DNA from: Prorocentrum cordatum
Taxonomy: Eukaryota
Assembly (NCBI GenBank): GCA_963575745.1
Contig: CAUYUJ010000205.1
Location: 1-64,000, forward strand
Reading direction: 5' to 3'
Length of the DNA: 64,000 nt
The translations under genes and the position numbers were made by a program. This document shows positions 13,243 through 63,110 of this stretch, piece by piece. The number at the start of each line of letters is the position of its first letter. Positions within the stretch are counted from its first letter, which is position 1. The notes under the pieces were generated by a model that was given only the letters and a program-made list of their open reading frames with translations, had not been told where the DNA came from and ran no database searches.

Positions 13243-14857
13243 TAACTCGTAGAGCTTCCCTTAGCTAGTTATAGCTGGAAGCTAAGAGTAAGTCCGGCGC
13301 GCTGGAGAGCTAGTTGGCTCAAAAAAAAAGAACTGAAGTTTTCACAACTTTTGGTCGGTTGAAAATTATGTTCTCGAAATTTGACAATTCGTTTGTGCTC
13401 TAGTATTTTTTCCCGTGATATTCGATCTTATTCCCGCTCGCCATCTTGATCTCAGCTCGATCGGGTAACTTTGAAGCCAAAAAGCACACTGGCGGGATCG
13501 CCGTTTCGAGTTATCTTGATACGCGTTGTCAGTATTTTGTACTTAACTCTAGCTAAACAACAACTACAGAGCTCGTAAGCACAGCTATCGCACTCAGAAC
13601 CATCAGGCGCGTTCGCCTGTTGAATCCATAGGTCTGAACTCGGTCTGCTAGCCGAGCTAGGTCTGCAAACCTATTCGTATTATTCGAGTGAACTTGATAC
13701 GCGTTGTCGTATTTTTCCTTTAACTCGAGCTGTAGGGCAGCTACAGTGCTGGTCAGCACGCCTATCGCACTCAGAATCATGAGGCGCGTTCGTCTGTTGA
13801 ATCCATAGGTCTTAACTCGGTCTCCCAGCTGAGCTAGGTCCGCAAACCTATTTGTATTATTCGAGTCAACTTGATACGCGTTGTCGGTATTTTCTACTTA
13901 ACTCGAGCTGTAGGGCTGCGACAGTGCTGGTAAGCACATCTATCGCACTCAGAATCACCAGGCGCGTTCGCCTGTTGAATCCATAGGTCTGAACTCGATC
14001 TGCTAGCCAAGCTAGGTCCGCAAACCTATTCGTATTATTCGAGTGAACTTCATACGCGTTGTTGGTATTTTGTACTTAATTCGAGCTGCAGGGCAGCTAC
14101 AGAGCTGATAAGCACACCTATCGCACCCAGAACTATTAGGCGCGTTCGCCTGTCGAATCTATAGGTCTGAACTCGGTCTGCTAGTCGAGCTAGGTCCGCA
14201 AACCTATTCGTATTATTGGGGTCATCTTGACAAACACTCGGTATTTTCTGTACTTAACTCGAGCTGTAGGCAGCTACAGAGCCTACAGTCACAGAAATCG
14301 ATTGAGAATTATCGGGCGCGTTTGTCCGTTGTATCGAGAGCTCTGAACTCCGCCTGCTGCCCGATCTAGGTTCGCGAAACTATTCCTATTGTCCGAATCA
14401 TCGCGAAAAGTGCTCTCAATTTTCTGCGCTGGAAGAGGGCTACAGTGCTGCGGGTCATAGAAATCGATTTGCACACATCGGGCGCGTTCGTTGGTCGATT
14501 CGAGAGCTCAGAACTTGGTCTGCTGCTCGAAACAGGTCTGCGAAACTATTATAAGATTCGAGTCATCCTGAGAGATGCTGTCGGTTTTCTGCACTTAACT
14601 CGGGCTGTAGGGGGGCTGCAGGGCTGGTAATCACATGAGTCGATTCGCAGACATCAGACGCGTCCGCCTGTCGCATTGAGAGGTCTGAACTCGGTCTGAT
14701 CAGACGCGTCCGCTTGTCGCATTCAGAGGTAAAAAAATATTCACTATGAGTCAGAACGTTGGTAGGTGCTCTCGGTTTTCTCAACTTAAGTCGAGCTTGG
14801 AAGCTCTACGAGTTCCCCGGCGGTAACCAAGGTTGACGGTTTACCGCCGGCGCCCAG
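13243..14857 (+). mobile_element. Family A element
   Basis: Flanks GACGGACC|TTTTGGTGAC rejoin to the A consensus. Confidence 0.85.
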
Positions 14858-17517: not shown

Positions 17518-20497
17518 TCGCGCTTTGCAGGGTCCCACGCAACGTCAACGGCGCCCCTGCAAGCGTCTTCTGCGAGGTTTCCAGCGTCCCGCGCATTGTT
17601 TCAGGCGGCCTGGCAGAGGTCCCCGTGCGGCATTCCGCGCTTGGCTTCGCTATCCGGGTTTTGGACGCTTACAAGTTCTTCCACTAGGCAGATCTTCCTC
17701 TCGCGCTTTGCAGGGCCCCACGCATAGTAACCGGCGCCCCTGCAAGCGTCTCCTGCGAGGTTTCCAGCGTCCCGCGCATCGTTTCAGGCGGCCTGGCAGA
17801 GGTCCCTGTGCGGCGTTCCGCGCTTGGCTTTGTTATCCGGGTTTTGGACGCTTACAAGTTTCCCGGAGAGCTCGCTGAGAGCGTTTAAGATTAGAAGCCG
17901 GACGGTGGTGGTGCCCGCCAGAAGCTCCTCCACGGCGGTCCACGTTCCCCGCAGCGACTCGCCTGAACCGGCAACGGGTCCGGGAGAGCCTCCGGCAAGC
18001 TTCCACGCGTGCCTGCACGCGCGGAGGCACGCATGGAGGCGTTTCGGCCAGCGCTTCGGAAGCTCTGCTGGGGAGCTTCCCAGAGATCCCCAGCACAGGT
18101 TTCCCGTAACTCGTAGAGCTTCTCTTAGCAAGTTATTGCTGGAAGCTAAGAATAATTCCGGCGCGCCCCACAGCTAGTTGGCTCGATTTTTTAGTTTTTA
18201 GCTTATTTCTGTTAGTTTTTTTTCTTTTCTTTCTTCTTTTTTTATTCGTTTAGCCCTTGTTTTATTCTTTTTTTTTTAGTTTTTAGTTTTTCAGTGATAG
18301 TTTTTTTATTTTTTTTCTTTTTTTTTTTTCTTTCTACTAGGTTTTCTAGTCTTTATTCTTTTTTTATAGTCTTGTGTTAGTCCTTTTTTCTTTCTTGTGT
18401 TATTTCTTTAGATTTTTTTCTTTTTTTTTTATCTGTTTAGTTGTGTTTCATTTTTTTTCTTTTAATTACTGTGTTTTATTCTTTTTTTTGTTTTAGTTTT
18501 TTTATTGTTTCTTTTTTAGACTAGTACTCTTTTTTTTTTTTCTTTAGTATTTAGTTGGCTCGAAAAATAACTCGTAGAGCTTCCCTTAGCTAGTTTCAGC
18601 TGGAAGCTAAGAGTAATTCCGGCGCGCCGGATAGCTAGTTGGCTTGAAAAAAAAGAACTCAACTTTTCACAATTTTTGGTCGGTTGAAAATTATGTTCTC
18701 AAAATTTGAACATTCGTTAGAGCTCTAGTATTTTTTCCCGTGATATTCGATCTTATTCCCGCTCGCCATCTTGATCCCAGCTCGATCGGATACCTTTTAC
18801 TGCGAAAAACCACACTGGCGGGATCGGCCGTTTTGAGTCATCTTGATACACGTTGTCGCTATTTTGTACTTAACTCAGTAGGACAGCTACAGAGTTGGTA
18901 AGCACAGCTATGGCACTCAGAATCATGAGCCGCGTTCGTCTGTTGAATCCACAGGTCTGAACTCTGTCTGCTAGCCGAGCTAGGTCTGCAAACCTATTCG
19001 TATTATTCGAGTCAACTTGATACGCATTTCGGTATTTTATACTTAACTCGAGCTGTAGGGCAGCTACAGTGTTGCTAAGCACACCTATCGCACTCAGAAT
19101 CATCAGGCGCGTTCTTCTGTTGAATCCACAAGTCTGAACTCGGTCTGCTAGCCAAGCTAGGTCCGCAAATCTATTCGTATTCGAGTGAACTTGATGCGCG
19201 TTGTTCTACTTAACTCGAGCTGTAGGGCAGCTACAGTGTTAGTAAGCACACCTATCGCACTCAGAATCATCAGGCGCGTTCTTCTGTTGAATCCATAGGT
19301 CTGAAGTCGGTCTGCTAGCCGAGCGAGATGCGCAAACCTATTCTTATTATTCGAGTCAACTTGATACGCGTGGTGGCTATTTTGTACTCCATTCGAGCTG
19401 CAGGGCAGCTACAGTGCTGGTAAGCACACCTATCGCACTCAGAATCATCAGGCGCGTTCGCCGCTTGACTCCAGAGGTCTAAGCTCGGTCCGCTAGCCGA
19501 GCTAGGTCCGCAAATCTATTCGTAGTATTCGAGCCATCTTGACAAACGCTCTCGGTATTTTTACAGTGCTGCGGGTCATACAAATCGATTTGCACACATC
19601 AGGCGCGTTCGTTGGTCGATTCGAGAGCTCAGAACTTGGTCTGCTGCTCGAAACAGGTCTGCGAAACTATTATATTTTTCGAGTCATCCTGAGAGATGCT
19701 CTCGGTGTTCTGCACTTAACTCGGGCTGTAGGGGGGCTGCAGGGCTTGTAATCACATGAGTCGATTCGCAGACATCAGACGCGCGCGCCTGTCGCATTGA
19801 GAGGTCTGAACTCGGTCTGATCAGACGCGTCCGCTTGTCGCATTCAGAGGTCAAAAAATATTCACTATGAGTCAGAATGTTGGTTGGTGCTCTCGGTTTT
19901 CAACTTTTGTCGAGCTTGGAAGCTCTACGAGTTCCCCGGCAGTAACCCCTGGCTCAAGCTCTACGAGTCTCCCGGCGGTAACCAGGGTTGAGGAAGCGGA
20001 GTTTACCTCCCGCTCTCCCTCGGCCTTGTCCCGTCGGGGGGCTCACTCGAGCTGCGTCGTGCAGTCAGGCAGCCTGCCCCTGGCCCGCCGCGCGGGGGGC
20101 GCGTGGCGATCGGGCCACTTCGGCGACGCCTGCACTTGTTTGCGGCATTGTTTGCACTTGTTTGCGAGCAGGCCGCCTGCACTTGTTTGCGGCATTTTGC
20201 CGCGTCGAGCTGGACTGGACGAGCCAGAGTCAATCGATCGATTTGGACCGCTGGGGAGCCAACTTCGGACATTGGGAGTGGGAGTATCTTGCCAGACAGG
20301 TTGGTAGAGCTCGACACGACGATAAGGATTCTCTAGTCGACATACCATCTGGGCCACCTGATCTCTCTCCCACTTTACCTCACCATCCTGTTGCCCCATA
20401 TAACTTTCATCAGGTGAGTGCACATCTCAAACGTACTCGAGAAGATCGATCGTTCTGTGCGAAGTGGAATATCCCTTGTAATATCTCAGACGGCAAG

Positions 20498-21546
20498 ATG
20501 GCTGCCTCATCAGCTGCTGCGGTCCCCGAGGTTTTCGCTATGGACGCCACTGATATGCCCGTTCCAGGAGCCAAGGAGGAGGAGGTCCCAGAGGGAAAAC
20601 GGGTCAAACTTCAGACGGTTGAAGGCCTCGAGGAGGCCATGACAAAGGGGATGGACAAGATCACGACGCTTGTTGCATCTCTGGGAGGTAAGATGACGGA
20701 GGGCTTCTAATCAACACATCGAAGCATCACGGATCTCGGCACCCAGCTCAATGCTCGTGTTGATTCGGTGGAGAAAAATGTACAGCAGGCGATGACGGAC
20801 ATAGATGCTATTACTAAGAAGGTTGAGGATCAGAGGCTCCAGATAATCCAGCTCCAGCAGGCTCCTGCAGGTGGGGCCCCCAGAGCAGGCACCTCTACGA
20901 CAGCGTCCTCGGCAGAAACTCGGCAGTCAGTGCAGAATTTCACCCCATCGTTCGTCGAGCTCAAAGGATGGGTGACGGACTGGAGGGATGCAGAGAAGCG
21001 TCAGGAGGAGATGTTATCACAGCAGGCGTTGAATTCACTGCTGAATGAGGTCCTGGCTGGAGAATGGTTCAGTGGTGTGAAGGAGTTTCTGGACCTGAAC
21101 CAATCCAAGAGGTTCAACACAGGTAGAGAGGCGTGGGGGTATTCGCGTGCTCGGCTCTATTTCCAGAATGGGGTTACCAGTGACCAGCTGTGTGATCTTC
21201 GTCGTCGACTCGTTGCCGCGATCGCCGACAACAAACTCCAGCACGCTCCCAGGGCCCTCAAGGTCCACGTGGAGCCCCCCCCCCCTGGAAGAAGCCCCAT
21301 CTGGATGCCGCTGGGATCTTGCAGGCCAAGTTCAAGAGTTTCAAGAAGCATCATTCGAATCTCAGGGCTGAGACGGGACCACCGATTACGTTCATGTGGG
21401 GCTCCAGTGACCACTTACCACCTCCAGGGAAGATTGTGGCCAAGTTCTCTCTGCAGAACGGCTGGGAGATCACTCGTGCAATGAATCAGCTTGAGCCAGG
21501 GATCAACATTGATGAGTTGCGAGCGAGGATTTCCAGTACGAACTAG
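20498..21546 (+). pseudogene. LINE ORF1 (coiled-coil-like N-terminus)
   Basis: MAASSAAAV... continues across a TAA at 20708-20710 and a frameshift in the C-run near 21280; heptad-like LEEAMTKGMDKITTLV...IDAITKKVEDQ; lies directly upstream of ORF2. Confidence 0.65.
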
Positions 21547-21576
21547 AGGTGCCACGACACCATTGCGTCAGGGAAT

Positions 21577-24500
21577 GTGCGTCGGGCAGGTGCAGAGAAC
21601 GGCCATGACATAATTAATTCACTACGTCGTTTAGATGTGGGACTCGCGGGGTTGTGCGAGTGTCAGTTCCTTTCAGTTCGTGATCTCAGCATGCGAGGTT
21701 ACACAATTTTTCGGAGTACTTGTCGGAAGGCTGCGGTGATTATGTCTAAGTCTTGGAGAGACTCGCTCAGAGCCACATATCGTGGCAAAGGTGTTGTCAT
21801 TTGTAGTTATTCTAGTGTTACGGTTATTGTTGCATATATGCCACATGAGAGTATCAATGCCCTTACGGAAGAACAGTATGAGCATGATGTGTATGAACAG
21901 ATATTGTTTGATATATCCCGAGTGCTTCGCACACATAGGTCTAAGTTCCCGAAGCAGCCGCAGGACCTGGTCTTCTTGACAGATGCTAACGTCGAACTCG
22001 AGCCAGATTCGGAGGTCAACGGCGTTAGAGTTACTGGATCAGGGCTTCTGGAGGCGTCTGGGATTGCTGGGGAGTCTACGGAGATTGATACTGGGATGGA
22101 GGAGGGAGCGGATGACGGCAACCCGTATATGACTCAAACAAAACGTGGTGCACGCAAAGCCAAACCTCATAGGCTTGTCTCGGGCTTCGAAATTCGACGG
22201 GCGTCTAGGTTGCAATCGATGAGGAGGGCCCTACTGGACTTCTGCGGGCTCTGGGGCATCAGGATGGAGAACACATTCGGGCAGAGGAGGGTTACTTTCA
22301 AATCAGGTACGGGGGTGAGAAGGTGCTCGACTATGTTGGTGTCAGCCGTCGTTTACACAGGCAGGAGCTCACCGTTGGCTGGATGCTGACTTCGGAAGTC
22401 GGCCACGCCTGGACGGAGCACCCTTGCAGCAGATACGAGCGTGCGCTGTCTGACCACGCCTGCATAGTTGTTCGCTTGTCTTGTGCACCGTCTGCGAAGA
22501 GACGGAACCAGCCTGCTCGAAAATTCATCCACTTGCAACCGGTGTCACAGCTGGAGTTTGCGAAGAACATGGACGATCGGGGCAGTCGTTACCGTGCTCT
22601 GTGCCAGGAATATGCTGACCCAGAGGATCGACAGGAGATGTTGGATACGCTGGGACCTGACCTCATAAAGGCCGCCGAGGAGACCCCCCAGAAAGATATC
22701 AATCCCAGGAATAATGTGCCAAAGAAATCCGAAATCCACTGGGCCGCCCAGGCAAGTAAACGTGAAGCTCTTCGTCGGGGGGATAGAGAGGAGGCTAAAC
22801 GGTGCTCAAAGATTGTGAGGAGAGAAAGAAGGAGGCTAGAGGCAAGAGTACAGAGGTGGAGGACGGAAATGAACACGAGGAGGAGGAGGAGGGCCAAGAC
22901 GGAGACGTTGATCCTGGCCAACGGGATGGAGTCTCAGAACCGCGAGGAGTGGGGGGACGAGATATTGGGGCACATGAAGTCTAAGGTGGAGGACCCCGAG
23001 GCCAGAGAGGTGACCCTGCGTGAGCTTCAGTCGCTGCGTGGTCTATGTTCGGGAAGCGGATCCTCAGAGGTGTTCTCGATGTCGCTCCTGCTGCGGGCGA
23101 GGGCGACGCTGTCCACGGGAAAGGCCCCAGGTCCCGACAACGTGACTGTCACGATGTTGAAACAGCTCTCGTGGGCATCTGTGCGACGTGTTCTGGTGAG
23201 CTTCCAAGGTGTGTATTCCAGAAGGTTATGTTGTCCCAACAGTTGGCGTCAACTAGCTGCCGCACTCATGCCAAAAGAAATGGACATACAACATTTGACA
23301 GATACACGTATGCTATGTCTACAGTCGTGTCTTATGTAATGGTACATGACATGTATTGTGATGTTGATTGAGAAGAGGATTGAGGAGCACCGACACTATG
23401 TATGCCTGTACGGATTCAGATCGGGACGCAAAACATCGGAAATCACAGCGTTGCCAAGAGGCTCAGCCAGCACTCCGCTGTCTGGGGCAAAGGAGACAGT
23501 TTGTGGCTTGCCAATCTTGATATCTTACAAGCTTTCGATAATGTTACTCCGTGCCTCGCCATGCGCTGTCTTCGTGCTCTTGACATACCTGCTGATCTCA
23601 TAGTGGCGTTGATTGAACCCATGATGGATAATCAGTGCGTGGCCAGCTTCGAGGGCATCGAGGCATCGTCAGCGGTCTATTGGGACAAATCTATTCGAAC
23701 GGGAGGAGTAGAGGGACCTATGATTTTCTGGCAGTTTCTATTGTACTCTGGAGAGATGTTATCGACAGATGGAGGCAAGAAACGCAGTACGGCATCAAAT
23801 TGGAAAATGATGAGCGCATGTTCAATGGTGAGCGTATGACCCACAGTTTCTGGGCAGATAATCTTTTGTTGTATGCGAAGACCCGCACTGACCTTGAGTT
23901 GATGGTGCGTGACATGAGTATCCCCCTGATGAATGCAGGAATGACCTGGAAGCCGAAATCTTTGATGTATATTTACTTTGGTGCGCCGCCTGGCATCCCG
24001 CCGTCCCCTGAGCAGGATATCCGTGTGCTGGTGCCGTCTAGTGACGCCGCTCTTGGGACCCGAGAAGTGGTCCTACCGCGTGTTCAAGCGTTTGAGATCC
24101 TGGGAGCCACTCTGGAGGAGACCTGGAAGGACCACTCGGACTCAGAGGCCATGCTCCAGAAAGCCCAGAGGATGTTCTTTGGGGAAATCGCGTATTACCG
24201 CTGTTCTGGGATTGACTTGGCTGAAAGATTTACTCGCTATCAAGCTAAAGTGATTGCTGCATTATTATTCAACTGTGAGGGCAGAACGCCCGACTATTCT
24301 ACCATTGCTGCTGTTCACTATTTTGAAGGCAGATGTCTAGCTATAATGTCAGGTATACGCAAGCGGAGAACTGAAGGCTGGTCTGAGTTTCAACGTAGGC
24401 GATACAAAGCGGGACGACAGAGTTTTGCTGGACTTGGATTCCGAAGTGCGGTGCAGATATGGATATTTCGTTGTTGGGATTGGGCTAAGGATGTCTCAGT

Positions 24501-25717
24501 TGCTGCAAGTATTCGTATGAGGAGATACACAACACACACAGAGGAGGAGGAGGGAGAGACGGTACCAAATCGGCGTCAGAGGAAAACTCGGGCGATGGCG
24601 GCGGCGGCGACTTCTCAAACATATCATGTATCTCAGATATCCCAGATGTCGAGTGGCTGTCGCCGGCGTACACCAGATGATCAGCCTGCCATACCTGAGG
24701 AGTCGGACATGTCACGTGAATGGATGATATCTAGGCTGGCCATGTTACATGGAAGGGGGAAGTGGACGGAACATCGTGACACATGTATTCTAGCAATGCC
24801 TGTAAAAGATAGGAAGCAGCTGACACGCATGAACATAGGCGGCCGCCCCCGTGGACATACTGCGTGGGACTGGTGCTTGTGCGATCTCTTTGGTTGTGAG
24901 TGGTACCTCTCATTCGACAGTTCCGCTGGGTCCCGTGAGAAATACTGCAAGCATTTGCTGACTGTGATTGGTATGCAACACTTGTTCGACTTGTTTGTTC
25001 TACCCAGGCCGCCTGGTGTGAGACATGTGAAGGCAGAGGAGGAGGAGGAGAGTGAGATGAATGAGAGGATGAGCAAACGTATTGCCGCAAATTTTGAGAA
25101 TGAAACGGAGTGGAGGTGTGAGAATATTGAGCGTCTTGGGATGGAGATCTTGGGAGATAGTAAGACTGTTGTAAACTGGATGTGTGGTGAGTGGCAGATT
25201 CGCAACAAGCAGTATGTACGACTGGTGGGAACACTACAAAATACGGTATCGATGCTGTCTGGATGGGGACTGACCTCACCTGCATCGGGACAGAATCTGT
25301 ATAAGCATTTCTTTCGTGAGGGTAATGAGCGTGCGGATAAATTGTCGTGGGAGGCCAGAGGTGGCCAAACTATTACTCGCTGGTTTGCATATGATAAGTT
25401 CCTCAGTACTCGTAAGACTGCTCTCCGTGGTGCATTCGATGGGGGTGTCAGTAATGAAGGATGTGGAGGTGGGTGGTGGCTTCAGATTGGCGTTGTAGGT
25501 AGGGGTTCCAGCGTGCAGGTTGATTTTCCCATCTCCTCCTCCTCCTCCCTCCTCTTCCTCCTGCACCAGCTCGCACAGCTTCCATTGGCACGATGTGGCC
25601 GAGGAGGCGATGAGCTTGCCTCCTGGTAGCACGGTAACCTGCTGTGAACTAGCTGCCTGCGCTGCCCTGACGAGAGCTGCTGCTAAGGTGGCGTGCGCTC
25701 TGCTACGACCTACCTAA
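21577..25717 (+). pseudogene. LINE ORF2: APE endonuclease, reverse transcriptase, RNase H-like domain
   Basis: APE: GLCE, TDAN, ENTF, LDYV, SDH. RT: KAPGPD, YGFR, LDILQAFDNV, IRTGGVEGP, WADN. RNase H: GDS, HFFREGNERAD, FDGG. Several frameshifts and a stop at 23337-23339. Confidence 0.9.
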
Positions 25718-26833
25718 GATGGTGGGGGCTCAGTTGCACTGCTCCGCCGATTCGGATTCGGATTCTAGTGGCGGACCGCAAACCGCAAAAAAACCACGGT
25801 TGACGGTTTACCGCCGGCGCCCAGCTTCGACGGAACTTTTGACAACTTTTGCTCGGTTGAAAATTTCGTTCTCAAAATTTGATAATTCGTTTGAGCTCTA
25901 GTATTTTTTCCCTTGATATTCGGTCTTATTCCCGCTCGCCATCTTGATCTCAGCTCGATCGGGTGAATATTACTATCGAAAAGCACTGTTGCGGGATCGG
26001 CCGTTTTGAGTCATCTTGATATGCGCTGACGGTTTTCTGAACATAACTCGAGCTCTAGGGCAGCTACAGAGCTGGTAAGCACAGCTAATGCATGCAGAAT
26101 GATCAGGCGCGTTCGCCTGTTGAATCCAGAGGTCTGAACTCGGTCTGCTAGCCGAGCTAGGGCCACAAACCTGTTCGTATTATTCGAGTGATCTTGACAG
26201 AAACTCTCGATTTTCTGCACTTACCTCGAGCTGTAGGACAGCTACAGAGCTGAAATTTAGGCACCAATTCAGAATCATCAGTTGCGTTTGTCTGTCGACT
26301 CCAGAGCTCTGAACTCGGCCTGCTGCCCGATCTAGAATCGCGAAACTATTCGTATCGTTCGAGTCGCTTGCGAGATAATGTCGGTTATCTGGACTTATCT
26401 CGGGCTGTAGGGGGGCTGCATGGCTGTTCGTTACTGGAATCGATTTGAAGACATCAGGCGCGTCCGCCTGTCGAATTCAGAGCTCTGAACTCTGTCTGCT
26501 GCCCGAACTAGTTCCGCGAAACTATTCCTATTGTTCGAGTCATCCTGAGAGATGCTGTCGGTGTTCTGCACTTAACTCGGGCTGTAGGGGGGCTGCAGGG
26601 CTGGTAATGACAGGAGTCGATTCGCAGACATCAGACGCGTCCGTCTGTCGCATTCAGAGGTCAAAAACTATTCACTATGCGTCAGATTGTTGGTAAGTGC
26701 TGTCTGTTTTCTTAACTTAAGTCGAGTTAGGAAGCTCTACGAGTCCCCCGGCGGTAACCAAGGTTGACGGTTTACCGCCGGCGCCCAGTTCCCAAAGGGT
26801 TTCTTCGCTCTCCGGGTTTTGGACGCTACCAAG

Positions 26834-28690
26834 TACCTCGTAGAGCTCTTCGTCATAACTCGTAGAGCTTCCCTTAGCAAGTAATTGCTGGAAGCTAAGA
26901 GTAATTCCGGCGCGCCCCAGAGCTAGTTGGCTCGACAAATCTCGACGGAACTTTTGACAACTTTTGGTCGGTTGAAAATTTTATTCTCGAGATTTGACAA
27001 TTCGTTAGAGCTCTAGTATTTTTCCCGTGATATTCGATCTTATTCCCGCTCGCCATCTTGATCTCAGCTCGATCGGGTGAATACTACTGTCGAAAAGCAC
27101 TGTGGCGGGATCGGTCGTTTCGAGTCATCTTGATACACGGTGACGGTTTTCTCAAGATAACTCGAGCTTCAGGTCAGCTACAGAGCTGATCAGCACAGCT
27201 TATGGATCCAGAATGATCAGGCGCGTTCGCCTGTTGAATCCAGAGGTCTGAACTCGGTCTGCTAGCCGAGCTAGGTGCGCAAACCTATTCGTATTATCCG
27301 AGTCATCTTGACAGGCGCTCTCGGTTTTTTGTACTTACTCGAGCTGTAGGACACCTACAGAGCTGATATTTACAGGAACTGATTCAGAATCATCAGTTGC
27401 GTTTGTCTGTCGAATCTAGAGCTCTGAACTCGGCTTGCTGCCCGATCTAGAATCACAAAATTATTCGTATTGGTCGACTCATCTTGAGAAGTGCTATCGG
27501 TCTTCTTCACTCAACTCGCGCTGCGGGGGGCTACAGTTTGTTGTCACAGGAATCGATTCAAAGAGATCAGACGTATCCGCCTGTCGAATCCAGAGCTTTG
27601 AACTCGGTCTGCTGCCCGAACTAGGTCCGCATAATTATTGTATTGTTCGAGTCATCCTGAGAGGTGCTGTCGGTTTTTCGCACTTAACTCAGGCTGTAGG
27701 GGTGGTAATGAGGAGTCGATTCGCAGACATCAGACGCGTCCGCCTGTCGCATTCAGAGGTCAAAAAATATTCACTATGAGTCGGAATGTTGGTAGGTGCT
27801 GTCGGTTGTGTCAACTGAAGTCGAGCTAGGAAGCTCTACGAGTCCCCGGCGGTAACCAAGGTTGACGGTTTACCGCCGGCGCCCAGTCGATGAGGTAGAG
27901 GAATTCCGGCGCGGGGTGGAGCTAGTTGGCCCACCTGGCCGAGGCGGACAATGTGGCAACTTTTGGGTGGTTTTGCGATTTTTTGAAAGATATTTGACCA
28001 TTTATTTTAAGAAAGCAGATTTTTCGCACCTGTAGACGACTATGAGGGCCTCTGCGTCTTGATATGAGCTCTCTAGATGCATTTTTACTATGAAAACACT
28101 TGGAGGAACCAACTTTATGTCGACATCAAAAAATCATGTCTTCTCTTTTTCGAGAAATGCTTCCAGCAGCCCTCTCTTTTGATGCTGAGCACTCTTAGGC
28201 GTGTCAGGAGCTCTACGAGGTTCCCGGCGGTGACCAGGTTCCCGGCGGTGACCAGGTTCCCGGCAGCTTCCCCCTGGACTTGTGCAGGGCGGATGGCACC
28301 CTGGAGTTGGCCGCAGAGGTTTCATGATCCCTAGCCACTGCGCGATCACACAGGCTGAGTTGGCAGCTGCACATTCTCTTCTCAATGGCATTGCCGAGAT
28401 GTGTATACACGTACAACTTGGCAGGTGATTGTTTGTGTATTATATCTGCACAGCTCCGCTGTTGTAAGATACATGCTTAGCCCCACTGTTTCTTTGATGT
28501 GTGTATATTCCTGTGCAGCTACGCTGTTGTATCATATCTGCACAGCTACGCTGACTTGTATATCGCACAGCTCCGCTGTTAGTGCTTAGGTTGCCTGTAG
28601 GTAATCCTACCGCTGGCCCTGCCCCCTAAGGGGGCTCGAATCGGGCCCCGCAGACCGCAGACCAGGTTGACGGTTCACCGCCGGCGCCAG
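26834..28690 (+). mobile_element. Family B element hosting a family A copy (26856-27886) and a truncated LINE
   Basis: CTCTTCGTCA|TCGATGAG rejoins the B head; tail hairpin split at about 28265-28660. Confidence 0.8.
28265..28660 (+). mobile_element. 5'-truncated relative of the 19950-25791 LINE
   Basis: Last coding segment CAITQAELAAAHSLL...stop (28339-28428) parallels STVTCCELAACAAL; tail CCGCAG-ACCGCAG-ACC; same insertion point. Confidence 0.65.
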
Positions 28691-39746: not shown

Positions 39747-40891
39747 ATGCGTGGGCTGGCGTGCGGTGAGCGTGTGGCAGGGGCGTGGCAAGCGTGCTGC
39801 ACGCGCGTTGTAAGTTGCGCCTTGAGGGTTTCGGCGGGGGCGGGGGCCTGTCTGTTGAGTCGGAGGCGAAGTTACGATGCGGACCTGTACAATGAAAGTG
39901 AGGGTGATGAAGTTGCTGGTCCGTGCGGTTCTGAGCCCGAACCCGACACCGCATTCCTCTCTGATCACGGCCTTTTTGAACGCCTCGCCCAGCACCCGTT
40001 GCAGTTCATGGGTGGGCCCGACAAAACGAAAGTCATGGCATTGGTTTAGCGGGCGGGCAGTGATCGAACGGCTATTCATTCGCTCTCCTGTCCGCTTCAC
40101 CCCCTCCCCCTGCCCCGTTCACGGACAAGCCATGCCCGAGTTCTGCGTTTCGCCCCGCTGGCCCTGGGTTCCCACTTCGAGGCGTCGTGTGTGTAAGCAT
40201 TGTGCTTGCGATCGTGAAGGAGGCGCTGCAGGTCAGAGGAGAGCGTGATGAAAGGCCCTCTAGAACCATTGCTTGGGGGCCTGCCCTTACCTCTCATCTC
40301 TCCCGCAAGGGGCGCGTCGATGGAGCAGATGCCGTCGCTGACGCGCTCCACCAAGCTTCGATGCAGCCACCGTGCGATAGCCTTTCGTACGGTGAGGTTT
40401 CTTTAATTCGGGTCGGCGACCGAACTCTGTACATTCAGTGGACGAATGTTGAGGGGTCCGTGGGGCGACAGGTGTCGTTGTGGCCGAATGGCCAAATGAA
40501 AGCAGTAGTGAATGCACGTGTGAAACCAGAGTCCGTTGATGGGTTTGTTTTCATTGTGAAGCGGGTACCGATCATCATGGCGAAGGCCAAGAGGTCGGAG
40601 GGCAGCCCTTTTATGCCCAAGTGGTGTCAGACTTTGGTGCTGCGTGAGAATGCTCGCATGTGGAATGGCCCCATAGCCCCCTTTCCGAACGATGCCTGTG
40701 TCATGTGCAAGGCTTGCCGCTCTGTCCCCGCGTGCCTCCCGCCCGATAAGATGTTGCCAGAAGGCGACGAGCTGTTCCGATGCGGGGTTTGCTTGCAACC
40801 GTGGCATTTGCTTTGCGTGCTAGTGTGCAGCGCGACTCGGGTCCCAAAGCAAGGCGAGTGGTTTTCTTGTTCGTTGTGCGCTGGCAGGTAA
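39747..40891 (+). pseudogene. Disrupted coding region ending in a PHD-finger-like domain (ORF 40187..40891)
   Basis: CVMC...FRCGVCLQPWHLLC...PKQGEWFSCSLC fits C4-H-C3 with the conserved W. Upstream coding-like segment 39747..40049 is separated by a stop/frameshift. Confidence 0.65.
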
Positions 40892-45958: not shown

Positions 45959-48320
45959 TCTTGGCCTTTTTATAAATATTCCCAGGCCATCTTCTCGACT
46001 CGACCCACCCCGCCGTTACCTTCCTCTCACCCTCCCTCACTCGCCCTCTCTATCTCTCTCGTCTCTGGCTGTTCTCGCCCTTTTGCAACCTCCATCCTCC
46101 GTCCACCGCCCGCAATCTTCCCCCTTCCTAACTTCCTTGTTTGCATCAATGCACGTCCCATCCCCTATCTGGAATTAGCTGGAACTCTAACTCCCCTCCC
46201 AATTCCCCCCCTCCTCGCCGCCCATGGCCCCTTCCCGACTTTGCCCTGCCGCCCCGCCCGCCGCAGGCGGTGGCATGCAAGGGGGCGCGCAAGCTGAAGG
46301 CCAGGCCGAGCGATTCGGACTGCTGCGACTTCGATATGCTGCCGCTGAAAAGCACGCCCGCCCATCCGAAGACGACGGCTGAGGACAGATTGGAGAGGGC
46401 CCCCCTGAGGGGAGGGACGGGAAGAAGGAGAAGGAGGAGGAGGAGAAGAAGGAGGAAGAGACAACGAGGACGGGGGCGGTTGGGGAAGAGGACGAGGAGG
46501 GGAAGGCAGAAGCGAAGGGGGGATGAGGGGGGGAACGAGGAGGAGGAGGAGGAAGAGGATGGGGGGGGGGAAAAAGGGGGAGGAGGACGCGGAGGAGGAG
46601 GATGAGGATGAGGATGAGGAGATGATGATGATGATGGTGATGAGGAGGGAGGAGGAGAAGGAGGAGGAGGAGGAGGAGGAGGAGGAGGAGGAGGAGGAGT
46701 CGAGGAGAAGGAGGAGGAGGCGGAGGAGGAAGAGGAGGAGGAGGGGGAGGAGGAGAGGAGGAGGAGGAGGAGGAGGAGGGGGGGGGGAGGACGAGGCTGG
46801 GAGAGGAGGAGGAGGAGGAGGATGAGGGGAGAAGGGGAGGAGGAGGAGGAGGAGGAGGAGGAGGAGGAGGAGGAGGAGGAGGAGGAGGAGGAGGAGGAGG
46901 AGGAGGAGGAGGGAGAGGAGGAAGAGGAGGAGGAGGAGGAGGAGGAGAAGGAGATTGATGAGGAGGACGGCGCCGACGCCGACGACGAAGATGAGGATGA
47001 TAATGCGGAGGAGAAGGAGGAGACAGAGGAGGAGGCTGACGAGTATGAGGAAGAGCAGGAGGATCAGGAGGAGGAGTAGGGGGAGGATGAGGAGGAGGAG
47101 GAGGAGGATGAGGCGAATGATGAGAATACTGAGAGGGAGGGCAATGAGGAGGAGGATGAGGAGGAGGAGGATGAGAAGAAGGAGGATGAGGAGGAGGAGG
47201 AGGTGTAGGAGCAAGATGGGACGGTGGAGGAGTTGGAGGACCAGGATGAGATGGAAAGGGAAGAGGAGGAGGATGAGGAGGATGCTCGCACCGAAGGGCT
47301 CACGGTGTAGCCATCGCCGCGCCTTCGAGCCGAGCGGCCGCGCGGGGCGCCCGCGGGGCCGCGCATGGACGAGGGCGAGGCGCTTGCGTTCGCGCTGCCC
47401 AAGCAGCTGCCAGCAGGGGCGGTGCCCAAGCATCCGCTCTTGTCGCCAACGCAGCCAGCGGGGCCGCCGCCCGCGCACCTGCTGCCCCAGCAACACCAGC
47501 AGCAGCATGGGCAGCAGCGCCAGCAGCAGCAGCACCAGCAGCAGCCGATTGTTGTACCACCGAAGTTTCACAAGCCGCTGCTGCGGCCGCGGCGCTCCGC
47601 CGCCCCGCCTGCCAACGAGTTCGCCGATGCGGCCGCCTGCGTCGACGCCGGCGCGGCCGGCGACGTCGGCGCCGCCGCCGCCGCCGAGGTCGCGGCCGAC
47701 AGCGCCGCCGCCGGCGCCGAGCCAGCGGCGGGGGCCGCGGCTGCCGCGGCTGCAGGGGCAGCGGGCGCCGAGGAGACAGGCGCTGACGCTGCTGACGCTG
47801 ACGGCGCTGATGACGCCGCTGACATCAGTGAGGAGGAGCGGGTCGCGGCCGCTGCCCTTGCCGCGGCCCACGCCGCCTTGCAACGGACAGATGAGCTCCT
47901 CACTGGTGCCATCGCGAACTACCGCACGCTGTGCGAGACAGAGGTCAGCACGCGAGACCTTCTCGAGCAGGCGGAGGCAGCCTACGACGCGGCCCACGAA
48001 GCGTACATGCAAGCATTCGAGGGCTGCAGGCTCGGGAGGGCCGACGGCGAGTCGGCAGTTGCGCGGCGCGAAGAGACGTTCCGCGCGCACCGCGCAGCGC
48101 GGGGTGCTTTGGCGGCGGCCCTCGACGAAGGACCACCCCAGGGCCAGAAAACGGCCAAGGGAGAGGATGAAGGAGGAAGGGGGAGAGGATTGGGGGACGG
48201 GTGAGGAGGCGAACCAGTGAAGAGGAGGAGGAGGAGGAGAAGGAGGAGGAGGAAGAGGAGGCATGCTTATGCGAAGCCGTCGTCGTGGTCGTAGTCGTCG
48301 TCGTCGTCGTCGGCCTCGTT

Positions 48321-48352
<32 letters not shown>

Positions 48353-51300
48353 TGTCTTCGTCGTTGCGTCGTCGCCAATGCCACCGCCGCCGCCTCTCCT
48401 CCTCCGTCTCCTCATCCTTTTCCTCGTCCTCCTGGACCTCCTCCTCCGCCTGGTCCTCCTCCTCCGCCACCTCTCCTATCACCCTCCCCCTCCTGCTCTT
48501 CTACGTCCACCTTCTCATCCTGCTTGTCCTCCCTCCCTCCCCCTCTTCATCCTCATCGTCCCTCCACCTCTTCCTCCTCCTCCTTCTCCTCCTCCCTATC
48601 ATGCGCATCCTCGCCCTCGTCAGTGCTTCGCTTCGGGCCTGCATCGCGATCACCATCGTCCACATCTGCATGCACAACGAGAATTTCGTCACCAACATCA
48701 CGCCCCTCCGCTTCACCCAGAGACACAGCATTACCAGACCCACTACCACTATCATCTCCATCACCACCATCAGCATCACCATCACCAGCATAATCAGCAT
48801 TATCATCATGGCCTTCACCATCATCCACAACGACAACATCAGCATCAACATTATCAACATTAACAATTTCAGCATCATCATCATCAATGTCAGCATCAGC
48901 ATCATCCACGTGCTCATCATCATCAACATCATTGTCAGCATCAGCAACATAATCCTCAACCTCCTCATCATCCGCATCACCATCATCATCCCCGTCCTCA
49001 TCAGCATCACCATCTCCATCCGCATCACCATCGTCCCCCTCGACATCATCAGCATCATCGTCACCAACATCACTATCGTCCTTACCGTCCTCACTCATTC
49101 TTCTCATGTTACCCATCTCCAGCTCCATAATCGCCTTCGCCCACGTCCTTGCACCAATCACGCGAATCGTCATCGGCGCCATTGCCGCCAGCATCACCAT
49201 AGCATCCTGCAACACGCCCTCAACCTCAGTCTCATCAACATCCCCATTGCCATTCTCATCCCCATCTTCATCCTCGCCCTGACCCCCATTAACCATATCA
49301 CCATCACCATCCTCGTCCGTACCCTCATTATCATCCTCATCTCATCCCCACCCCCAACACCATCCGCATCCTCATCCTCAACAACATCCTATGCTTATCC
49401 CCCTTCCCATCGACGTCCCGCATTCTCGACGCTTTCGCATCCCCGTCATCATCTTCATCATCATCGCCATCCCCCTTCTCGCCATGCTCTTGCTCCTCCT
49501 CCTCCTCCGTCTCGCCCTCCTCCTCCTACTCCTCGGCCTCCCTCTTCTCCTCCTCCTCTTCCTCCTCAGCCTTCCTCTCCTCCTCCCTCGCCTCCTCCGC
49601 CTCCTCCTCCTTATCATCCTCATTCGTATCCCCACCATTGGTGAGGATACTAATGATGAGAGTGGCGTTGATGATGATGATGATGGTGGTGGGGGGTGGC
49701 GATGGCGGTGACGGCGACGATGGCGATGTAGATGATGCTGATGGTGAAGGAGGAGGAGGAGGATGAGGGGAGGAGGAAGAGGAGGAGGAGGACGGATGGA
49801 AGGGGGGGGGGGGGCTCGGGGAGAGAGGAGGAGGAGAAGGGGGAGAAGGAGGGGGGGGGGATGAGGGGGGGGAGGGGGAGGGGGGGGCGGGGGGGGGGGA
49901 GGGGGGGGGGGCAGGGAGAAGAGGATGATGCAGATGAGGAGGCGGGCAGCCGGTGACGGTGATGGTGATGGTGATGACGAGGATGCTGAGGGCGATGGCA
50001 CTGGCGATGGCGATGCGGGGGAAGAGGAGGAGGGGGGAGGAGGAGGATGCGGCGGGGGGGGGGGGGGGGGGGGGTCGAGGAGGAGATGGGGAAGGATGAC
50101 AAGGGAGAGGAGGAGAGGAGGTGGAGGGGGAGGAGGAGGAGGAGGAGGAGGAGGAGGAGGAGGAGGAGGAGGGAGGCGGAGGAGGAGGGGGAGGGGGAAG
50201 AAGAGGGGGATGGGAAGAGGATGCGGAGAAGGAGGCGGGAAGCGGAGAGGCTTGAGGGGGGCGAGGAGGAGGGGGGTGAGGAGGAGGACGAGGATGAGGA
50301 TGAGGATACGGATCATGATGAGGAGGGGGAGGGGGGGGAGGAGGAGGAGGAGGAGGTGGAGGAGGAGGAAGAGGAGGAGGAGGAGGAGGAAGGGGGGGAG
50401 GTGGCGACGGAGGAACAGGAGGAGGAGGATGAGGAGGGGGAGGAGAAGGAGGAGGAGGAGGAGGAAGGGGAGGAGGGGGGGGATTGGGAGAAGTAGGCGG
50501 AGGAGAAAGAGGAGGAGGCGGAGGAGGAGGAATGCCGCCTAGAGGACGTTGAGGCGCTCGTCGAGACGGAGCTCAGCGACGCGCAGTCGCTGCTCACGTT
50601 CGTCGGGCAGAACCGCTTGGGCATGGACATCGAGCGGGGCCAGGAGCTGATGCAGGTGGTGACGGGCGCGATGATGACGCTCCTGAGCAAGGTGACGGTG
50701 CTCGGCGGCCACGTGGAGTCGCAGGAGGTTGCGTGGAAGCTGCTCTCCACGGCGGTCTTCGACAAGATCGGGGAGACGGTGCCGCCAGCGTGGGGCAAGG
50801 TGCTGAAGTCGTGCCAGAAGATCAAGAGCGAGGGCGTTGGCGAGTACGTCAACGGTGGCAGCCCGCACAAGGCGCTGATCGAGGGGGGCTTCACGGTGCA
50901 GCAGATGACGGCGTACAAGGCGGGCTTGCTCTTGAGCGTCGCGTCGCAGCTGGGCAACATGGAGGTGAACATTGTGCCTCGAGGCACGGTGCCGTACGTG
51001 CCGCACGTGATCAAGCTCCACATCGACGAGCTGAAGGAGAAGCACTCGCTGCAACACGTGCTGCACGACGAGTCGCAGGTTGCGCAGATGCCGTTCGTGA
51101 AGTTGCGATCGGCATTCGAGATCAAGCAAGGCGAGGCGGTGGCGTTCAACGCGATCGCGGAAGCTTGGGCGAAGCACGAGAACGGCCTGCACGCCCGCGC
51201 CGTGAGCCTCGGCATGGGCAACTACCTCAGCGACGTGATCACAGCCACGGACGAGCTGACGACGTGCACGAGGATCGGCCAGTGGCAGACGAAGGTGACG

Positions 51301-51879
51301 ACGTCGCTCCGCCACCATCCACCATCTCCGTCCTCCTCCTCCTCCTCTTCCTGGCCTCCTCCTCCTGCTGCTGCTGCTCCTACTCCGCCTCCTCCTCCTC
51401 GTCCTCCGCCTCATCCTCCTTCTCCTCTTCCTCCTTCACCTCCTCCCTACTCCCTCCCCCGCCCCCTTCCCCTCCCTCCCCTGTTTCAATCCACTCACCC
51501 ACCCATCCATCACTCGTCCGTTCGCTCCCTCCCTCATCCTTCCTCCTCCTCCTCGGCCTCCTTCTCAACGATCTCGCACCCCTCCTCGCGCCCTTCCTCA
51601 TCCACGCCTCCTCCCTCTCCTCCTTCGTGCCCCGTACTCTTGCTCGCTGTTCCTCCTTCTCGTCCTTCCCATTCCCATCTCCTCCATCGTCTCCTTCTTA
51701 TCCAGTCCCCATCGCCCCGTCATCCTTCTCGTCCCCCTCCTCCCTATTGTCCTTCCTCCTCCACCGCCGCTCTCCCCTCCTCCTCGTTCTCCTCCTCCTC
51801 CTCCTCCTCCTCCGCCTCCTCCTCCTCCTCTTCCTCCTCCCCCCCTCCCCCGCCCCCCCCTCCCCGCCCGTTCCCTAAG
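45420..51879. repeat. Intronic low-complexity (CCT)n, (GAG)n, (CAT)n and (GTC)n tracts
   Basis: Pyrimidine tracts 45420-46260, 48390-49630 and 51310-51875; purine tracts 46400-47280 and 49740-50530. Confidence 0.9.
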
Positions 51880-56327: not shown

Positions 56328-58790
56328 CGAACGAACGAACGAACGACGCGCTCCGTCGGCCCAGAGGCCGTCCCGAGACGGGTGGCGCGGTGGCGCCTCA
56401 GCGCCCTCAGTTCTGGTACTCGACGGTGCATTCCAGCCAGCGTTTGCACTGCCCCCCACGCCGCCGGGCGCGGTTCTCTGGCTCCCAGTTAAATGCAATC
56501 TGTGCCCACGACTCTGTGTCAGTACTCATGCGTCCAAGCCAACGTACTGCGGCTTTGCGGTGTTCTGCAACCCAATCACGTAGATTCAGACGCGCAACAC
56601 GGTGTTCAGCATCATGCGTAGCCCTCCTCACCCAATCGACCCATGGCTACAGATCCGCATCACAAGCGTGCGAAGCATCGCGGGAAAGAAGACGACGACG
56701 ATGACGATGTAGTCGTTGACTGTCGGTGCTCTCTGCGCCTGGGCATGCGGATAATCATTCTTAGCATTGTCCTTTGTGTTCGACGAATACTGTCCTCGAG
56801 TTCGCGCATCAGCACCCACGTGGCCGAGCCGCACTGGCAGAGCACCGTGTCAGTTACTGAGCTGTCAAACAACCGGAGACTCGCATTTAATGGATAGCTT
56901 CTGTCCGTGAGCTTTGCGCGGTGCTGCATGGAACACTTCCAAGAACAACGAATGCGATTGTTGGTCTCCACTTCATGGGGCCGGTCGAAACCCACCATTC
57001 TGCCAAGATGTTTCATGCTTCCGCTATCAGGAGCAATATCAATGCCTATGTCGCCAATCATGACCTTCGGCTCCTTCGGTCTGCCTGTGCCCCTGGTCGC
57101 GTTGCTTAGAATCTTTGTTTTGTCTGGGTGTAGTTCGAGTCCAACTCTGGCCGCGGCGCCTTTGATGTCCTGGAACATGGTCTTGAGCTACCTCAGCGTG
57201 CTGGACACGAGGAGACTGTCATCCGCAAAACGTAAATTTGTCAGCTGTGTGTGCTCCGTGAATCCCATCTTCAAGCCCCAACCTTTCCCAAGCCATTTCT
57301 GCTTCACTTCGCTCACAACGTCTTCTATGAGACAATTGAACAACAAAGTGCTCAGCGGGTCCCCTTGTTTCGTTCCACGCTGGATCTCGTAACGCTTGCT
57401 CAGGCAATCAATGCGTATTCTGGCTGTTTGTCCAGTGTAAAGCTTCTGACGCAGAGATATGTATCCGGATGGAACGCCGTGTCGGGCAATCGCGCGCCAC
57501 AAAGAACGGTGTTCAACACAATCAAATGCCTTTTTGAAGTCCAGGGCGGCGAGCCACAAGCCACACTGCCATTCGTGGCATTTCTCCTGAAGCATAGACA
57601 CAGTAAACATGTGGTGCACGGTGCTGAGGCCTTTCCTGAAACCCGCCTGGTCCATACTTTGGCGCTTGTCCAATATAGGGCACAATCTGTAGTATAATAA
57701 CTTTGCAAACAGTTTGTAAAGCAGGGGGATGATGATCATCGGGCGGTAATTGTTGGCATCAGCGACGTCGCCGGCCTTATGCAGTACAGTCACAGCCGAT
57801 TTCTTCCACGATTTCGGCGGGGACGCCGACGGTGAAATTATATTGTTGCGCAGATCCAAAAGTAAAGCTTCGACAGTAACACCAGCATTTTTCAGCATCT
57901 CTGCACATACCCCGTCTTGATCGCAGCACTTACCGTTCTTGAGACTCGCCAACTGCTCGCGCAGTTCTTCAATGGTAAAAGGTTGAATTGTCTCTGCTTC
58001 CAAATCGTTTACATCAGAATCTGGTTCATGTGCTGCCGCAGTGGTACTGTACAGCTTGGCGTAAAAATCGGCAAACACGTCTGCGATGCCCTGCCGGTCA
58101 GTATGAATAGCGCCCGTGCTGTCCGTTATGTGCGTGATCAGCTTCTTTTTCTTGATGGTCTTCAGCTTCGGTATGCTTCTTGTGTCCCTGAATGCTGTAA
58201 GGACCTCCTGGATTCGTGTAGTGGCCTGGCTCCTTCTGACACGCCGGACCTGTTTACGGATGTTCTTGCTCAAAGTTGTTCTTTCTGCTCCTGTCATAGC
58301 TTGCGTCTCCTTCCGTTGCGAAATAAGCCGCTGCAGCTCCATCTCGTCCCTTGAAGGTTGAACTTGACATTTCTGAGCCGCTTGGGCACTGGGAGCAGAA
58401 CCAACCATGATCTTCGTGATAACCTCACAATCGGTATCGGGATCCCCAGTGCTTTGATATCTCTGCTCCTCGTTTGGGTCTCCTCGGTAAACCGGCGTGC
58501 ATCAACAGATTTCCAAGGAACTTGCTGTACGTGGTCCTTCTTTTTGGCATTGTGCTTCGGCTTACTCGCAAAACGCATTTTGAGCAGCACTGGTTTGTGG
58601 TCTGATCCCATGTTCAAAACGCCAGTCGAACAAGAATCGAGTACACGAGGCAAAAGCTGAAAGTCCACCAATATATAATCAATTTGTCGCTCGTTGCCGT
58701 TCGCCCCACGGTGCGTGAACATATAGGGATGCCGCTTTGGAAAGAAAGTGTTCGTGATGCTGAAACGTTCTGTGCAAGGTGGCAAAGGTG
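56328..58790 (-). mobile_element. 5'-truncated RTE-like LINE (APE C-terminus + RT), decayed
   Basis: ITNTFF, QIDYILV, SDHKPV; NYRP, QAGFR, LDFKKAFD, GTKQGDPLS, LRFADD; possible (GTTC)n tail near 56328-56346; stop at 57188-57190 and frameshifts. Confidence 0.9.

Positions 58791-62549: not shown

Positions 62550-63110
<561 letters not shown>

What the first reader, a model, noticed from the sequence alone, without database searches (positions are those of the whole stretch)
19950..19991. Spliced-leader relic fused to a co-mobilised copy of the target site at the LINE 5' end
Seen: the insert starts TGGCTCAAG, followed by CTCTACGAGTCTCCCGGCGGTAACCAGGGTTGA. This second copy of the host subTIR and hairpin arm differs from the local host (GAGTTCCCCGGCAGT) and begins right after the AG of GGAAG. 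Known: the dinoflagellate spliced leader ends CCATTTTGGCTCAAG and is joined at AG acceptors. Inference: the donor LINE also lay in such a hairpin and was transcribed by read-through, then trans-spliced at the host's AG, so the host element supplies the RNA 5' end. The match is only 9 nt, so chance is possible.
Basis: partly seen in the sequence, partly recalled or inferred. Interest (0 to 1): 0.75.

Follow-up and report, generated by a model that had tools for sequence, protein, structure and literature searches.

The report
LINE insertion junction, probably not spliced leader
A decayed LINE retrotransposon sits in the loop of a repeated hairpin, and the nine bases that look like a dinoflagellate spliced leader are better matched by the LINE's own opposite strand, so this is most likely an ordinary messy insertion junction.

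Summary
A frameshifted ~5.85-kb non-LTR retrotransposon (19948-25797, + strand) splits the loop of one copy of a repeated host hairpin. Its 5' end carries a second, diverged copy of the host's left arm.

The spliced-leader (SL) reading is weak:
- The 9-mer occurs twice in the window against 0.92 expected.
- No longer SL match exists in the window.
- The SL explains 6 of the 8 filler bases.
- The 9-mer's other occurrence is on the LINE's own antisense strand (21487-21500). Identity there runs 14 nt. It covers all 8 filler bases plus 1 nt and 5 nt of overlap with the two flanks. None of 3000 simulated LINE bodies gave a match of 13 nt or more.
- All 13 named near-identical LINE protein fragments I looked up (70-96% identical) carry a green-alga label (Pyramimonas), not a dinoflagellate one.

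Best reading (about 0.5): the filler arose when the 5' junction formed, by a short internal priming on LINE RNA and a microhomology jump.

The SL relic keeps about 0.12. No other copy and no RNA data could be reached.

The co-mobilised host-arm copy is supported. It also forms a strong sense-strand RNA hairpin with LINE sequence.

The parts
19920..19947 (+). Left arm of the local host hairpin, cut off inside the loop after GTAACC
   Evidence: Collinear with uninterrupted paralogues at 14.8, 26.7, 27.8, 35.7 and 37.3 kb up to GTAACC
19944..19947 (+). AACC, 5' copy of the candidate 4-nt target-site duplication (3' copy at 25792-25795)
   Evidence: Both flanks of the insert share AACC when aligned to empty sites
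19948..19955 (+). 8-nt filler CCTGGCTC between the two host-arm copies
   Evidence: Matches no host copy. The longest match outside the LINE is these 8 nt alone
19950..19958 (+). TGGCTCAAG, the spliced-leader-like 9-mer of the finding
   Evidence: AAG is shared with the host arm, so only TGGCTC is informative
19947..19960 (+). CCCTGGCTCAAGCT, 14 nt identical to the antisense strand of 21487-21500
   Evidence: None of 3000 first-order Markov LINE bodies gave a match of 13 nt or more covering the filler; 11 of 3000 gave 12 nt or more
21487..21500 (-). Proposed template site inside the LINE (sense AGCTTGAGCCAGGG). It lies 44 nt before the stop that closes frame 21196-21546 and upstream of the ORF2 homology
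19956..19991 (+). Second, diverged copy of the host left arm plus loop start, carried by the insert
   Evidence: 35/36 identical to the copy at 37269 and 34/36 to 26732. It differs from the local arm at 3 of 28 positions
19965..20044 (+). Sense-strand RNA hairpin joining the host-like arm to LINE sequence
   Evidence: -54.5 kcal/mol, z -4.1, 0 of 200 shuffles as stable. The antisense strand gives -40.7 kcal/mol, z -1.4, 21 of 200. The outer 14-bp helix has 3 G.U pairs
19992..25791 (+). LINE body: 5' UTR, ORF1-like region (~20.5-21.5 kb), ORF2 (~21.64-25.65 kb), 3' UTR and a run of 7 A (25787-25793, the last two shared with the candidate duplication). Broken into at least 6 frames
   Evidence: Pfam RVT_1 E 2e-5, below the family cut-off. 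Family profile against human LINE-1 ORF2p, E 1.4e-15. hhalign 99.3% to an endonuclease+RT LINE, including the N-terminal part. Homologue coordinates
25792..25803 (+). AACCACGGTTGA: 3' junction. Matches 19980-19991 (AACCAGGGTTGA) at 11 of 12 positions, the alternative 12-nt duplication
   Evidence: Read
25798..25824 (+). Right arm of the local host hairpin
   Evidence: Exact match to the 27-mer found in 14 of the 17 hits in the window

Best explanation
A non-LTR retrotransposon with an endonuclease-like N-terminus, a reverse transcriptase and a conserved C-terminal domain inserted by target-primed reverse transcription into the loop of a repeated host hairpin. The copy is now decayed. The bottom strand was nicked so that the A-run abuts AACC. 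The RNA carried at its 5' end a host-type arm (19956-91), either transduced from a donor locus or built into the element, and this arm pairs with LINE sequence in a long hairpin. The 8 bases between the local arm and this second arm were made while the 5' junction formed. The freed top-strand end (...GTAACC) primed briefly on the LINE RNA at GGG (21498-21500) and copied about 11 nt in antisense. It then jumped through the 5-nt overlap AAGCT onto the end of the full-length cDNA. The likeness to a spliced leader is then a coincidence. Shown: the anatomy, the empty sites, the 14-nt identity and the RNA fold. Inferred: the order of events and the priming mechanism.
For: Empty paralogous sites define both junctions and a shared AACC. 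The element is a LINE by its RT: profile against LINE-1 ORF2p E 1.4e-15 and hhalign 99.3% to an endonuclease+RT LINE. The stretch 19947-19960 equals the antisense of 21487-21500 over 14 nt. That covers all 8 filler bases plus 1 nt and 5 nt of overlap with the flanks. None of 3000 simulated LINE bodies reached 13 nt, and the other 58 kb of the window gives only 8 nt. The direction of copying fits reverse transcription running toward the RNA 5' end. Short overlaps at both joints are what is described for LINE 5' junctions (recalled literature on twin priming and microhomology joining, not read here). The second arm is a non-local host variant.
Against: This is a single copy, so nothing is replicated. 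I found the 14-nt match after the fact; allowing for that, I estimate its chance at about 3e-4 within the LINE and 3e-3 in the window, the same order as the SL coincidence. Classical twin priming gives long inversions joined to 5'-truncated elements; here the inverted piece is only 8-14 nt and the direct part is full length. Only 1-3 nt could pair at the priming step. If the organism does use the dinoflagellate SL, an SL relic at a LINE 5' end would be expected a priori.
Confidence: 0.5

Rival explanations
1. Spliced-leader relic. A donor LINE was read through from a host element. The RNA was trans-spliced at the AG of GGAAG. The cDNA kept the last 9 nt of the leader, with 2 untemplated C in front.
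For: TGGCTC fits the leader exactly, immediately before the shared AAG. Host homology stops at an AG in 38 of 38 other copies. The unit has an A-run and a target duplication like a retrocopy. Truncated relics are known in dinoflagellates (PMC3229502 and PMC12014239, passages). A Prorocentrum cordatum protein is a distant relative of this LINE, 26-32% identical by tblastn and including ORF1.
Against: It explains only 6 of the 8 filler bases; CC stands where the relic has TT. A 9-nt relic matches neither described form (15 nt after the internal AG, or 6 nt). There is no other SL-like stretch in 64 kb. All 13 named near-identical LINE fragments (70-96% identical by phmmer) carry a Pyramimonas label. 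None of the 120 listed relatives of the second LINE carries a dinoflagellate name; the only NCBI-named rows are two arthropods and a rotifer, and most rows carry no name. The 14-nt antisense match would have to be pure chance.
Confidence: 0.12
2. The host duplicated its own arm first, and a simple LINE insertion followed. The local host already carried a 36-nt tandem duplication of the left arm with an 8-nt filler. The LINE proper (19992-25791) then inserted with a 12-nt target duplication, AACCAGGGTTGA / AACCACGGTTGA.
For: The two 12-mers match at 11 of 12 positions, a typical LINE duplication length. Another hairpin at 28209-28690 shows its left arm repeated 2.6 times next to an unrelated ~400-nt loop insert. 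So arm duplication happens in these hairpins without this LINE.
Against: The second arm differs from the local one at 3 of 28 positions, and the differences reproduce a variant common in other host copies. The paralogue at 14.8 kb shares the local variant and has no duplication. Both the 14-nt LINE match and the SL likeness would be chance. The duplication at 28.2 kb is exact and has no filler.
Confidence: 0.18
3. The filler is donor-locus flank or untemplated sequence of unknown source, and both likenesses (SL and LINE antisense) are coincidences.
For: This is a single junction. Both matches were found after the fact, and I estimate each at roughly 1e-3 once the search space is counted.
Against: It needs two independent coincidences of about 1e-3 in the same 8 bases.
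Confidence: 0.15

Closest known systems
LINE 5'-junction complexity: twin priming, template jumps and microhomology joining
   Same: An antisense piece of the element sits at the 5' junction. There are short overlaps at both joints. The insert has an A-run and a short target duplication.
   Different: The antisense piece is only 8-14 nt. The direct part is full length rather than 5'-truncated, and the copied site lies inside the retained part.
Relict spliced leaders (DinoRL) of dinoflagellate retrogenes (PMC3229502 and PMC12014239, passages)
   Same: A 3' part of the leader sequence sits directly upstream of a retroposed unit, at an AG of the parental sequence.
   Different: Only 9 nt, which matches neither described form. 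The preceding bases disagree. The organism is not shown to be a dinoflagellate. None of the four papers whose matching passages I read describes such a relic on a LINE.
5' transduction and read-through expression of site-specific LINEs such as R2 in rDNA, or SLACS/CRE/NeSL in SL genes (recalled)
   Same: The insert carries a copy of target-like sequence at its 5' end and sits in a repeated, defined target.
   Different: Only one insertion is seen. The 5' arm did not guide a seamless homology junction. No ribozyme or SL gene is present: Rfam gave 0 hits at gathering scores.

Membership tests
Dinoflagellate relict spliced leader | The organism trans-splices the dinoflagellate or perkinsid leader | tested here: inconclusive
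All 13 named near-identical LINE fragments are labelled Pyramimonas sp. CCMP1952, and two MMETSP transcripts carry no species name. There are no rRNA, tRNA or SL RNA genes in the window.
Dinoflagellate relict spliced leader | Contiguous match to the leader's 3' part, typically the 15 nt after its internal AG | tested here: not met
   Only 9 nt match, and the upstream bases are CC, not TT. The 15-mer has 0 matches at up to 3 mismatches in the window.
Dinoflagellate relict spliced leader | Sits at the 5' end of a retroposed unit, joined at an AG of the parental sequence | tested here: met
   AAG|CTCTACGAG: host copies have GGAAG in 37 of 38 and AGAAG in 1 of 38. A-run and flanking AACC are present.
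Dinoflagellate relict spliced leader | Recurs in other copies or in transcripts | not testable with these tools
   There is one copy in the window. The metagenome scan gave only chance bacterial hits. Viral and prokaryote collections were empty.
Non-LTR (LINE) retrotransposon | LINE-type reverse transcriptase | tested here: met
   RVT_1 E 2e-5, 24.8 bits against a cut-off of 29.6. Family profile against LINE-1 ORF2p E 1.4e-15 and R2 E 1.2e-8.
Non-LTR (LINE) retrotransposon | Endonuclease domain | tested here: inconclusive
   No Pfam hit. hhalign aligns the N-terminal 240 columns to the endonuclease part of an Exo_endo_phos+RT LINE; overall probability 99.3%, with an SDH motif aligned.
Non-LTR (LINE) retrotransposon | A-rich 3' end and target-site duplication against an empty site | tested here: met
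   Seven A at 25787-25793. AACC on both sides, or an 11/12 match over 12 nt. Five empty paralogous sites were aligned.
Twin priming | An inverted segment of the element at the 5' junction, with microhomology at the joints | tested here: met
   14-nt antisense identity with 1-nt and 5-nt overlaps.
Twin priming | A long inversion joined to a 5'-truncated direct segment | tested here: not met
   The inverted piece is 8-14 nt. The direct part keeps its 5' UTR, ORF1 and ORF2.

The most novel reading that the evidence does not exclude
The window is from a dinoflagellate or a mislabelled culture, and this LINE family has no 5' end of its own. It inserts into the hairpin loops of another repeat and is read through from it. 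It receives the spliced leader at the host's AG, and it carries the host arm as a sense-strand RNA hairpin that mimics its target. That would make it a LINE whose expression and targeting both depend on a second mobile element.
Probability: 0.1. Interest if true: 0.7.

Novelty: new member of a known kind. Interest (0 to 1): 0.25.

Why it matters
If the spliced-leader reading were right, it would show a LINE using trans-splicing at another element's acceptor site to get its RNA 5' end. It would also tie the retroposition machinery of dinoflagellates directly to leader-tagged LINE RNA. On the evidence here the junction is more likely an ordinary by-product of LINE integration. The parts worth keeping are modest: a LINE sitting in the loop of a repeated hairpin, and a host-like 5' arm that forms a strong strand-specific RNA hairpin with LINE sequence.

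Tried and rejected
- Whole-genome search: no genome is held for this window.
- Metagenome scan for GGCTCAAGCTCTACGAG: 120 loci. All 121 matches sit in unrelated contexts, most looking like bacterial coding sequence (the 17-mer can encode G-L-K-L-Y-E). None has SL bases upstream or host sequence downstream. This used the only metagenome scan and was a poor choice of pattern.
- Host hairpin 27-mer in prokaryote genomes and in viral contigs: 0 hits.
- LINE protein in viral contigs: 0 hits.
- Earlier scan notes by place, by sequence and by words: nothing.
- Organism identification:
  - No Rfam or tRNA hits.
  - Pfam on 46 non-LINE reading frames gave a second RT and one weak Gaa1 match (E 0.0033, 17 bits against a cut-off of 28.6) that I take as chance.
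  - The protein atlas gave no taxon.
  - 'CCMP1952' and 'CCMP 1952' occur in no searchable paper.
- Second LINE (minus strand, about 56.5-58.8 kb) as a second 5' end to inspect: it is 5'-truncated and so uninformative.
- The ~400-nt loop insert at 28.26-28.66 kb as a truncated copy or a SINE partner of the LINE: no significant similarity, 24 of 300 shuffles scoring as well.
- The LINE 5' region beyond 19991 as host-derived: BLAST finds no host similarity there.
- Literature: none of the four papers whose matching passages I read reports an SL relic on a LINE. The searches were made, and one search was badly constrained.

Full report
**Observation.** One search confirms the strings. TGGCTCAAG lies at 19950-19958 and CTCTACGAGTCTCCCGGCGGTAACCAGGGTTGA at 19959-19991. 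They are preceded by the local arm AAGCTCTACGAGTTCCCCGGCAGTAACC (19920-19947) and CC. The repeat finder reports the two arms as a 28-nt direct repeat, 89% identical, 36 nt apart.

As a motif the 9-mer is not enriched. There are 2 matches against 0.92 expected, and 21 of 100 shuffles reach 2. The 8-mer gives 3 against 3.6 expected. The 15-nt relic form quoted in the finding has no match at up to 3 mismatches, where 2.07 are expected by chance.

**Anatomy.**
- *The host repeat.* The window holds about 17-20 copies of a repeat that ends in ...GGAAGCTCTACGAGTcCCCGGCGGTAAnnAAGGTTGACGGTTTACCGCCGGCGCCCAG. The right-arm 27-mer has 17 hits, 14 of them exact, and contexts are listed. Arrays of 167-178-nt tandem units precede it.
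- *The insertion site.* I aligned the two flanks of the insert to five uninterrupted copies. The left flank follows the host up to GTAACC (19947). The right flank resumes at AACC-AC-GGTTGACGG (25792 onward). Both sides share AACC, and seven A precede it.
- *The insert is a LINE.* It spans 19948-25797 and occurs once in the window. Pfam gives a weak RVT_1 match, E 2e-5, below the family cut-off. A profile of ten relatives matches human LINE-1 ORF2p at E 1.4e-15 and R2 at 1.2e-8. hhalign aligns the family, including its N-terminal part, to an endonuclease+RT LINE at 99.3% probability. Full-length relatives of about 1300 aa map from 21643 to 25651. A Prorocentrum cordatum protein also matches the ORF1 region. 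The copy is broken into at least six frames, so it is old.

**The second host arm.**
- Homology of the insert to host copies covers exactly 19956-19991. It is 35/36 identical to the copy at 37269. No match extends upstream of 19956 or downstream of 19991.
- The arm carries GTCTCCC...GGCGG, as five other host copies do. The local arm and its paralogue at 14.8 kb share GTTCCCC. So the second arm did not arise from the local one, and it came with the LINE.
- Two caveats apply. First, AACCAGGGTTGA (19980-91) and AACCACGGTTGA (25792-803) match at 11 of 12 positions, so a plain insertion with a 12-nt duplication into an already duplicated host is a possible reading. Second, another hairpin at 28209-28690 shows its left arm repeated 2.6 times beside an unrelated loop insert.
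- The sense RNA of 19950-20050 folds to -54.5 kcal/mol (z -4.1; 0 of 200 shuffles as stable). The host-like arm pairs with LINE sequence at 20031-20044 through 14 bp, 3 of them G.U. The antisense strand folds much less well: -40.7 kcal/mol, z -1.4, 21 of 200 shuffles. The arm may therefore be a working part of the element's 5' end rather than a passenger. One sequence cannot test this.

**The filler.** Between the two arms lie 8 bases, CCTGGCTC.
- *What the spliced leader explains.* It accounts for the last 6 plus the AAG it shares with the host. It leaves CC where the relic form has TT.
- *A better match.* The only other TGGCTCAAG in the window lies inside the LINE on the opposite strand. Reading that strand, identity runs 14 nt: 19947-19960 equals the reverse complement of 21487-21500. 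This covers all 8 filler bases, one base of the local arm and the AAGCT of the second arm.
- *How likely by chance.* In 3000 first-order Markov simulations of the LINE body, no match covering the filler reached 13 nt and 11 reached 12. The remaining 58 kb of the window gives only the 8 nt themselves.
- *Proposed mechanism.* The orientation fits a top-strand 3' end that primed on LINE RNA at GGG. It copied about 11 nt toward the RNA 5' end and then moved by the AAGCT overlap onto the end of the full-length cDNA. This is a very short form of what is described for LINE 5' junctions as twin priming and microhomology joining. I recall that literature and did not read it here.
- *Caution.* I noticed this match after the fact. 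Counting the search space, I estimate its chance at about 3e-4 within the LINE and 3e-3 in the window, the same order as the leader coincidence (1 in 4096 at a fixed place, times the number of leaders a reader might recognise). One of the two must be a coincidence. The antisense match explains more bases and needs no assumption about the organism.

**Organism.**
- A full HMMER search with the 665-aa ORF found 270 relatives. I looked up 30 of them.
- All 13 that are 70-96% identical and carry an organism name come from one EukProt set labelled Pyramimonas sp. CCMP1952, a green alga.
- Two MMETSP transcripts without a species name are 100% identical to the window over 68 aa. So the LINE family is transcribed and the species, or a very close one, is in MMETSP.
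- The only dinoflagellate name seen is a 31%-identical Prorocentrum cordatum protein.
- None of the 120 listed relatives of the second LINE carries a dinoflagellate name; the only NCBI-named rows are two arthropods and a rotifer, and most rows carry no name.
- The window has no rRNA, tRNA or other Rfam family. Pfam on 46 non-LINE reading frames gave only a second reverse transcriptase and one weak Gaa1 match (E 0.0033, below the family cut-off), which I take as chance.
- The label is unverified, and the strain name occurs in no searchable paper. Still, nothing except the 9-mer itself points to a dinoflagellate.

**What is known.** Relict leaders in dinoflagellate retrogenes are described as the 15 nt after the leader's internal AG, and also as a 6-nt form (PMC3229502 and PMC12014239, passages). 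A 9-nt form matches neither. None of the four papers whose matching passages I read reports a leader relic on a LINE.

**Verdict.** The sequence is as described, and the co-mobilised host arm is real. The spliced-leader origin is not supported and not excluded. My estimates are:

| Reading | Probability |
|---|---|
| Integration-time template switch | about 0.5 |
| Earlier host duplication plus a plain insertion | 0.18 |
| Unknown filler, with two coincidences | 0.15 |
| Spliced-leader relic | 0.12 |

The decisive data could not be reached here: other full-length copies, RNA 5' ends and the organism's identity.

Noticed in passing
window 600-39600 (e.g. 14801-14857, 26732-26788): A hairpin-terminated repeat family. 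16 copies end in GGCGCCCAG and 15 of them are followed by T. Each is preceded by arrays of 167-178-nt tandem units. All but one of the 17 hits to the 27-mer are on the + strand. From memory this resembles Helentron/HINE-type non-autonomous elements; I did not test that.
   Followed up: partly
window 28209-28690: A second hairpin subfamily (loop GGTGACCA) is also interrupted in its loop, by about 400 nt unrelated to the LINE. Its 18-nt left arm is repeated 2.6 times at 100% identity beside the insert.
   Followed up: partly
window 19965-20044: A strong, strand-specific RNA hairpin at the LINE 5' end. It pairs the host-like arm with LINE sequence, with 3 G.U pairs in the outer helix. Sense strand z -4.1; antisense z -1.4.
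   Followed up: partly
window 56455-58776, minus strand: A second, unrelated LINE (RVT_1 E 6.6e-24). It is 40-47% identical to many unnamed 3-5-kb metagenome contigs that encode endonuclease+RT proteins. The endonuclease part is missing, so the copy is 5'-truncated.
   Followed up: partly
window 25345-25711: Two MMETSP transcripts (P0013, P0172) encode the LINE's 3' end: 100% identical over 68 aa and 98% over 44-45 aa. Their first 77 residues are not found in the window.
   Followed up: partly
window 46426-51863, 60012-60258, 62551-63699: Very long imperfect trinucleotide arrays, AGG/GGA/CTC types up to 285 units. Also (TTG)144 at 92% matches and a 41/82-nt tandem array at 63270-63699.
   Followed up: no
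window 40064-40888 and 50497-51400: Two reading frames look like real coding sequence but have no Pfam family. One ends in a cysteine/histidine pattern that looks like a PHD finger by eye. The other has an N-terminal 290 aa of normal composition.
   Followed up: no
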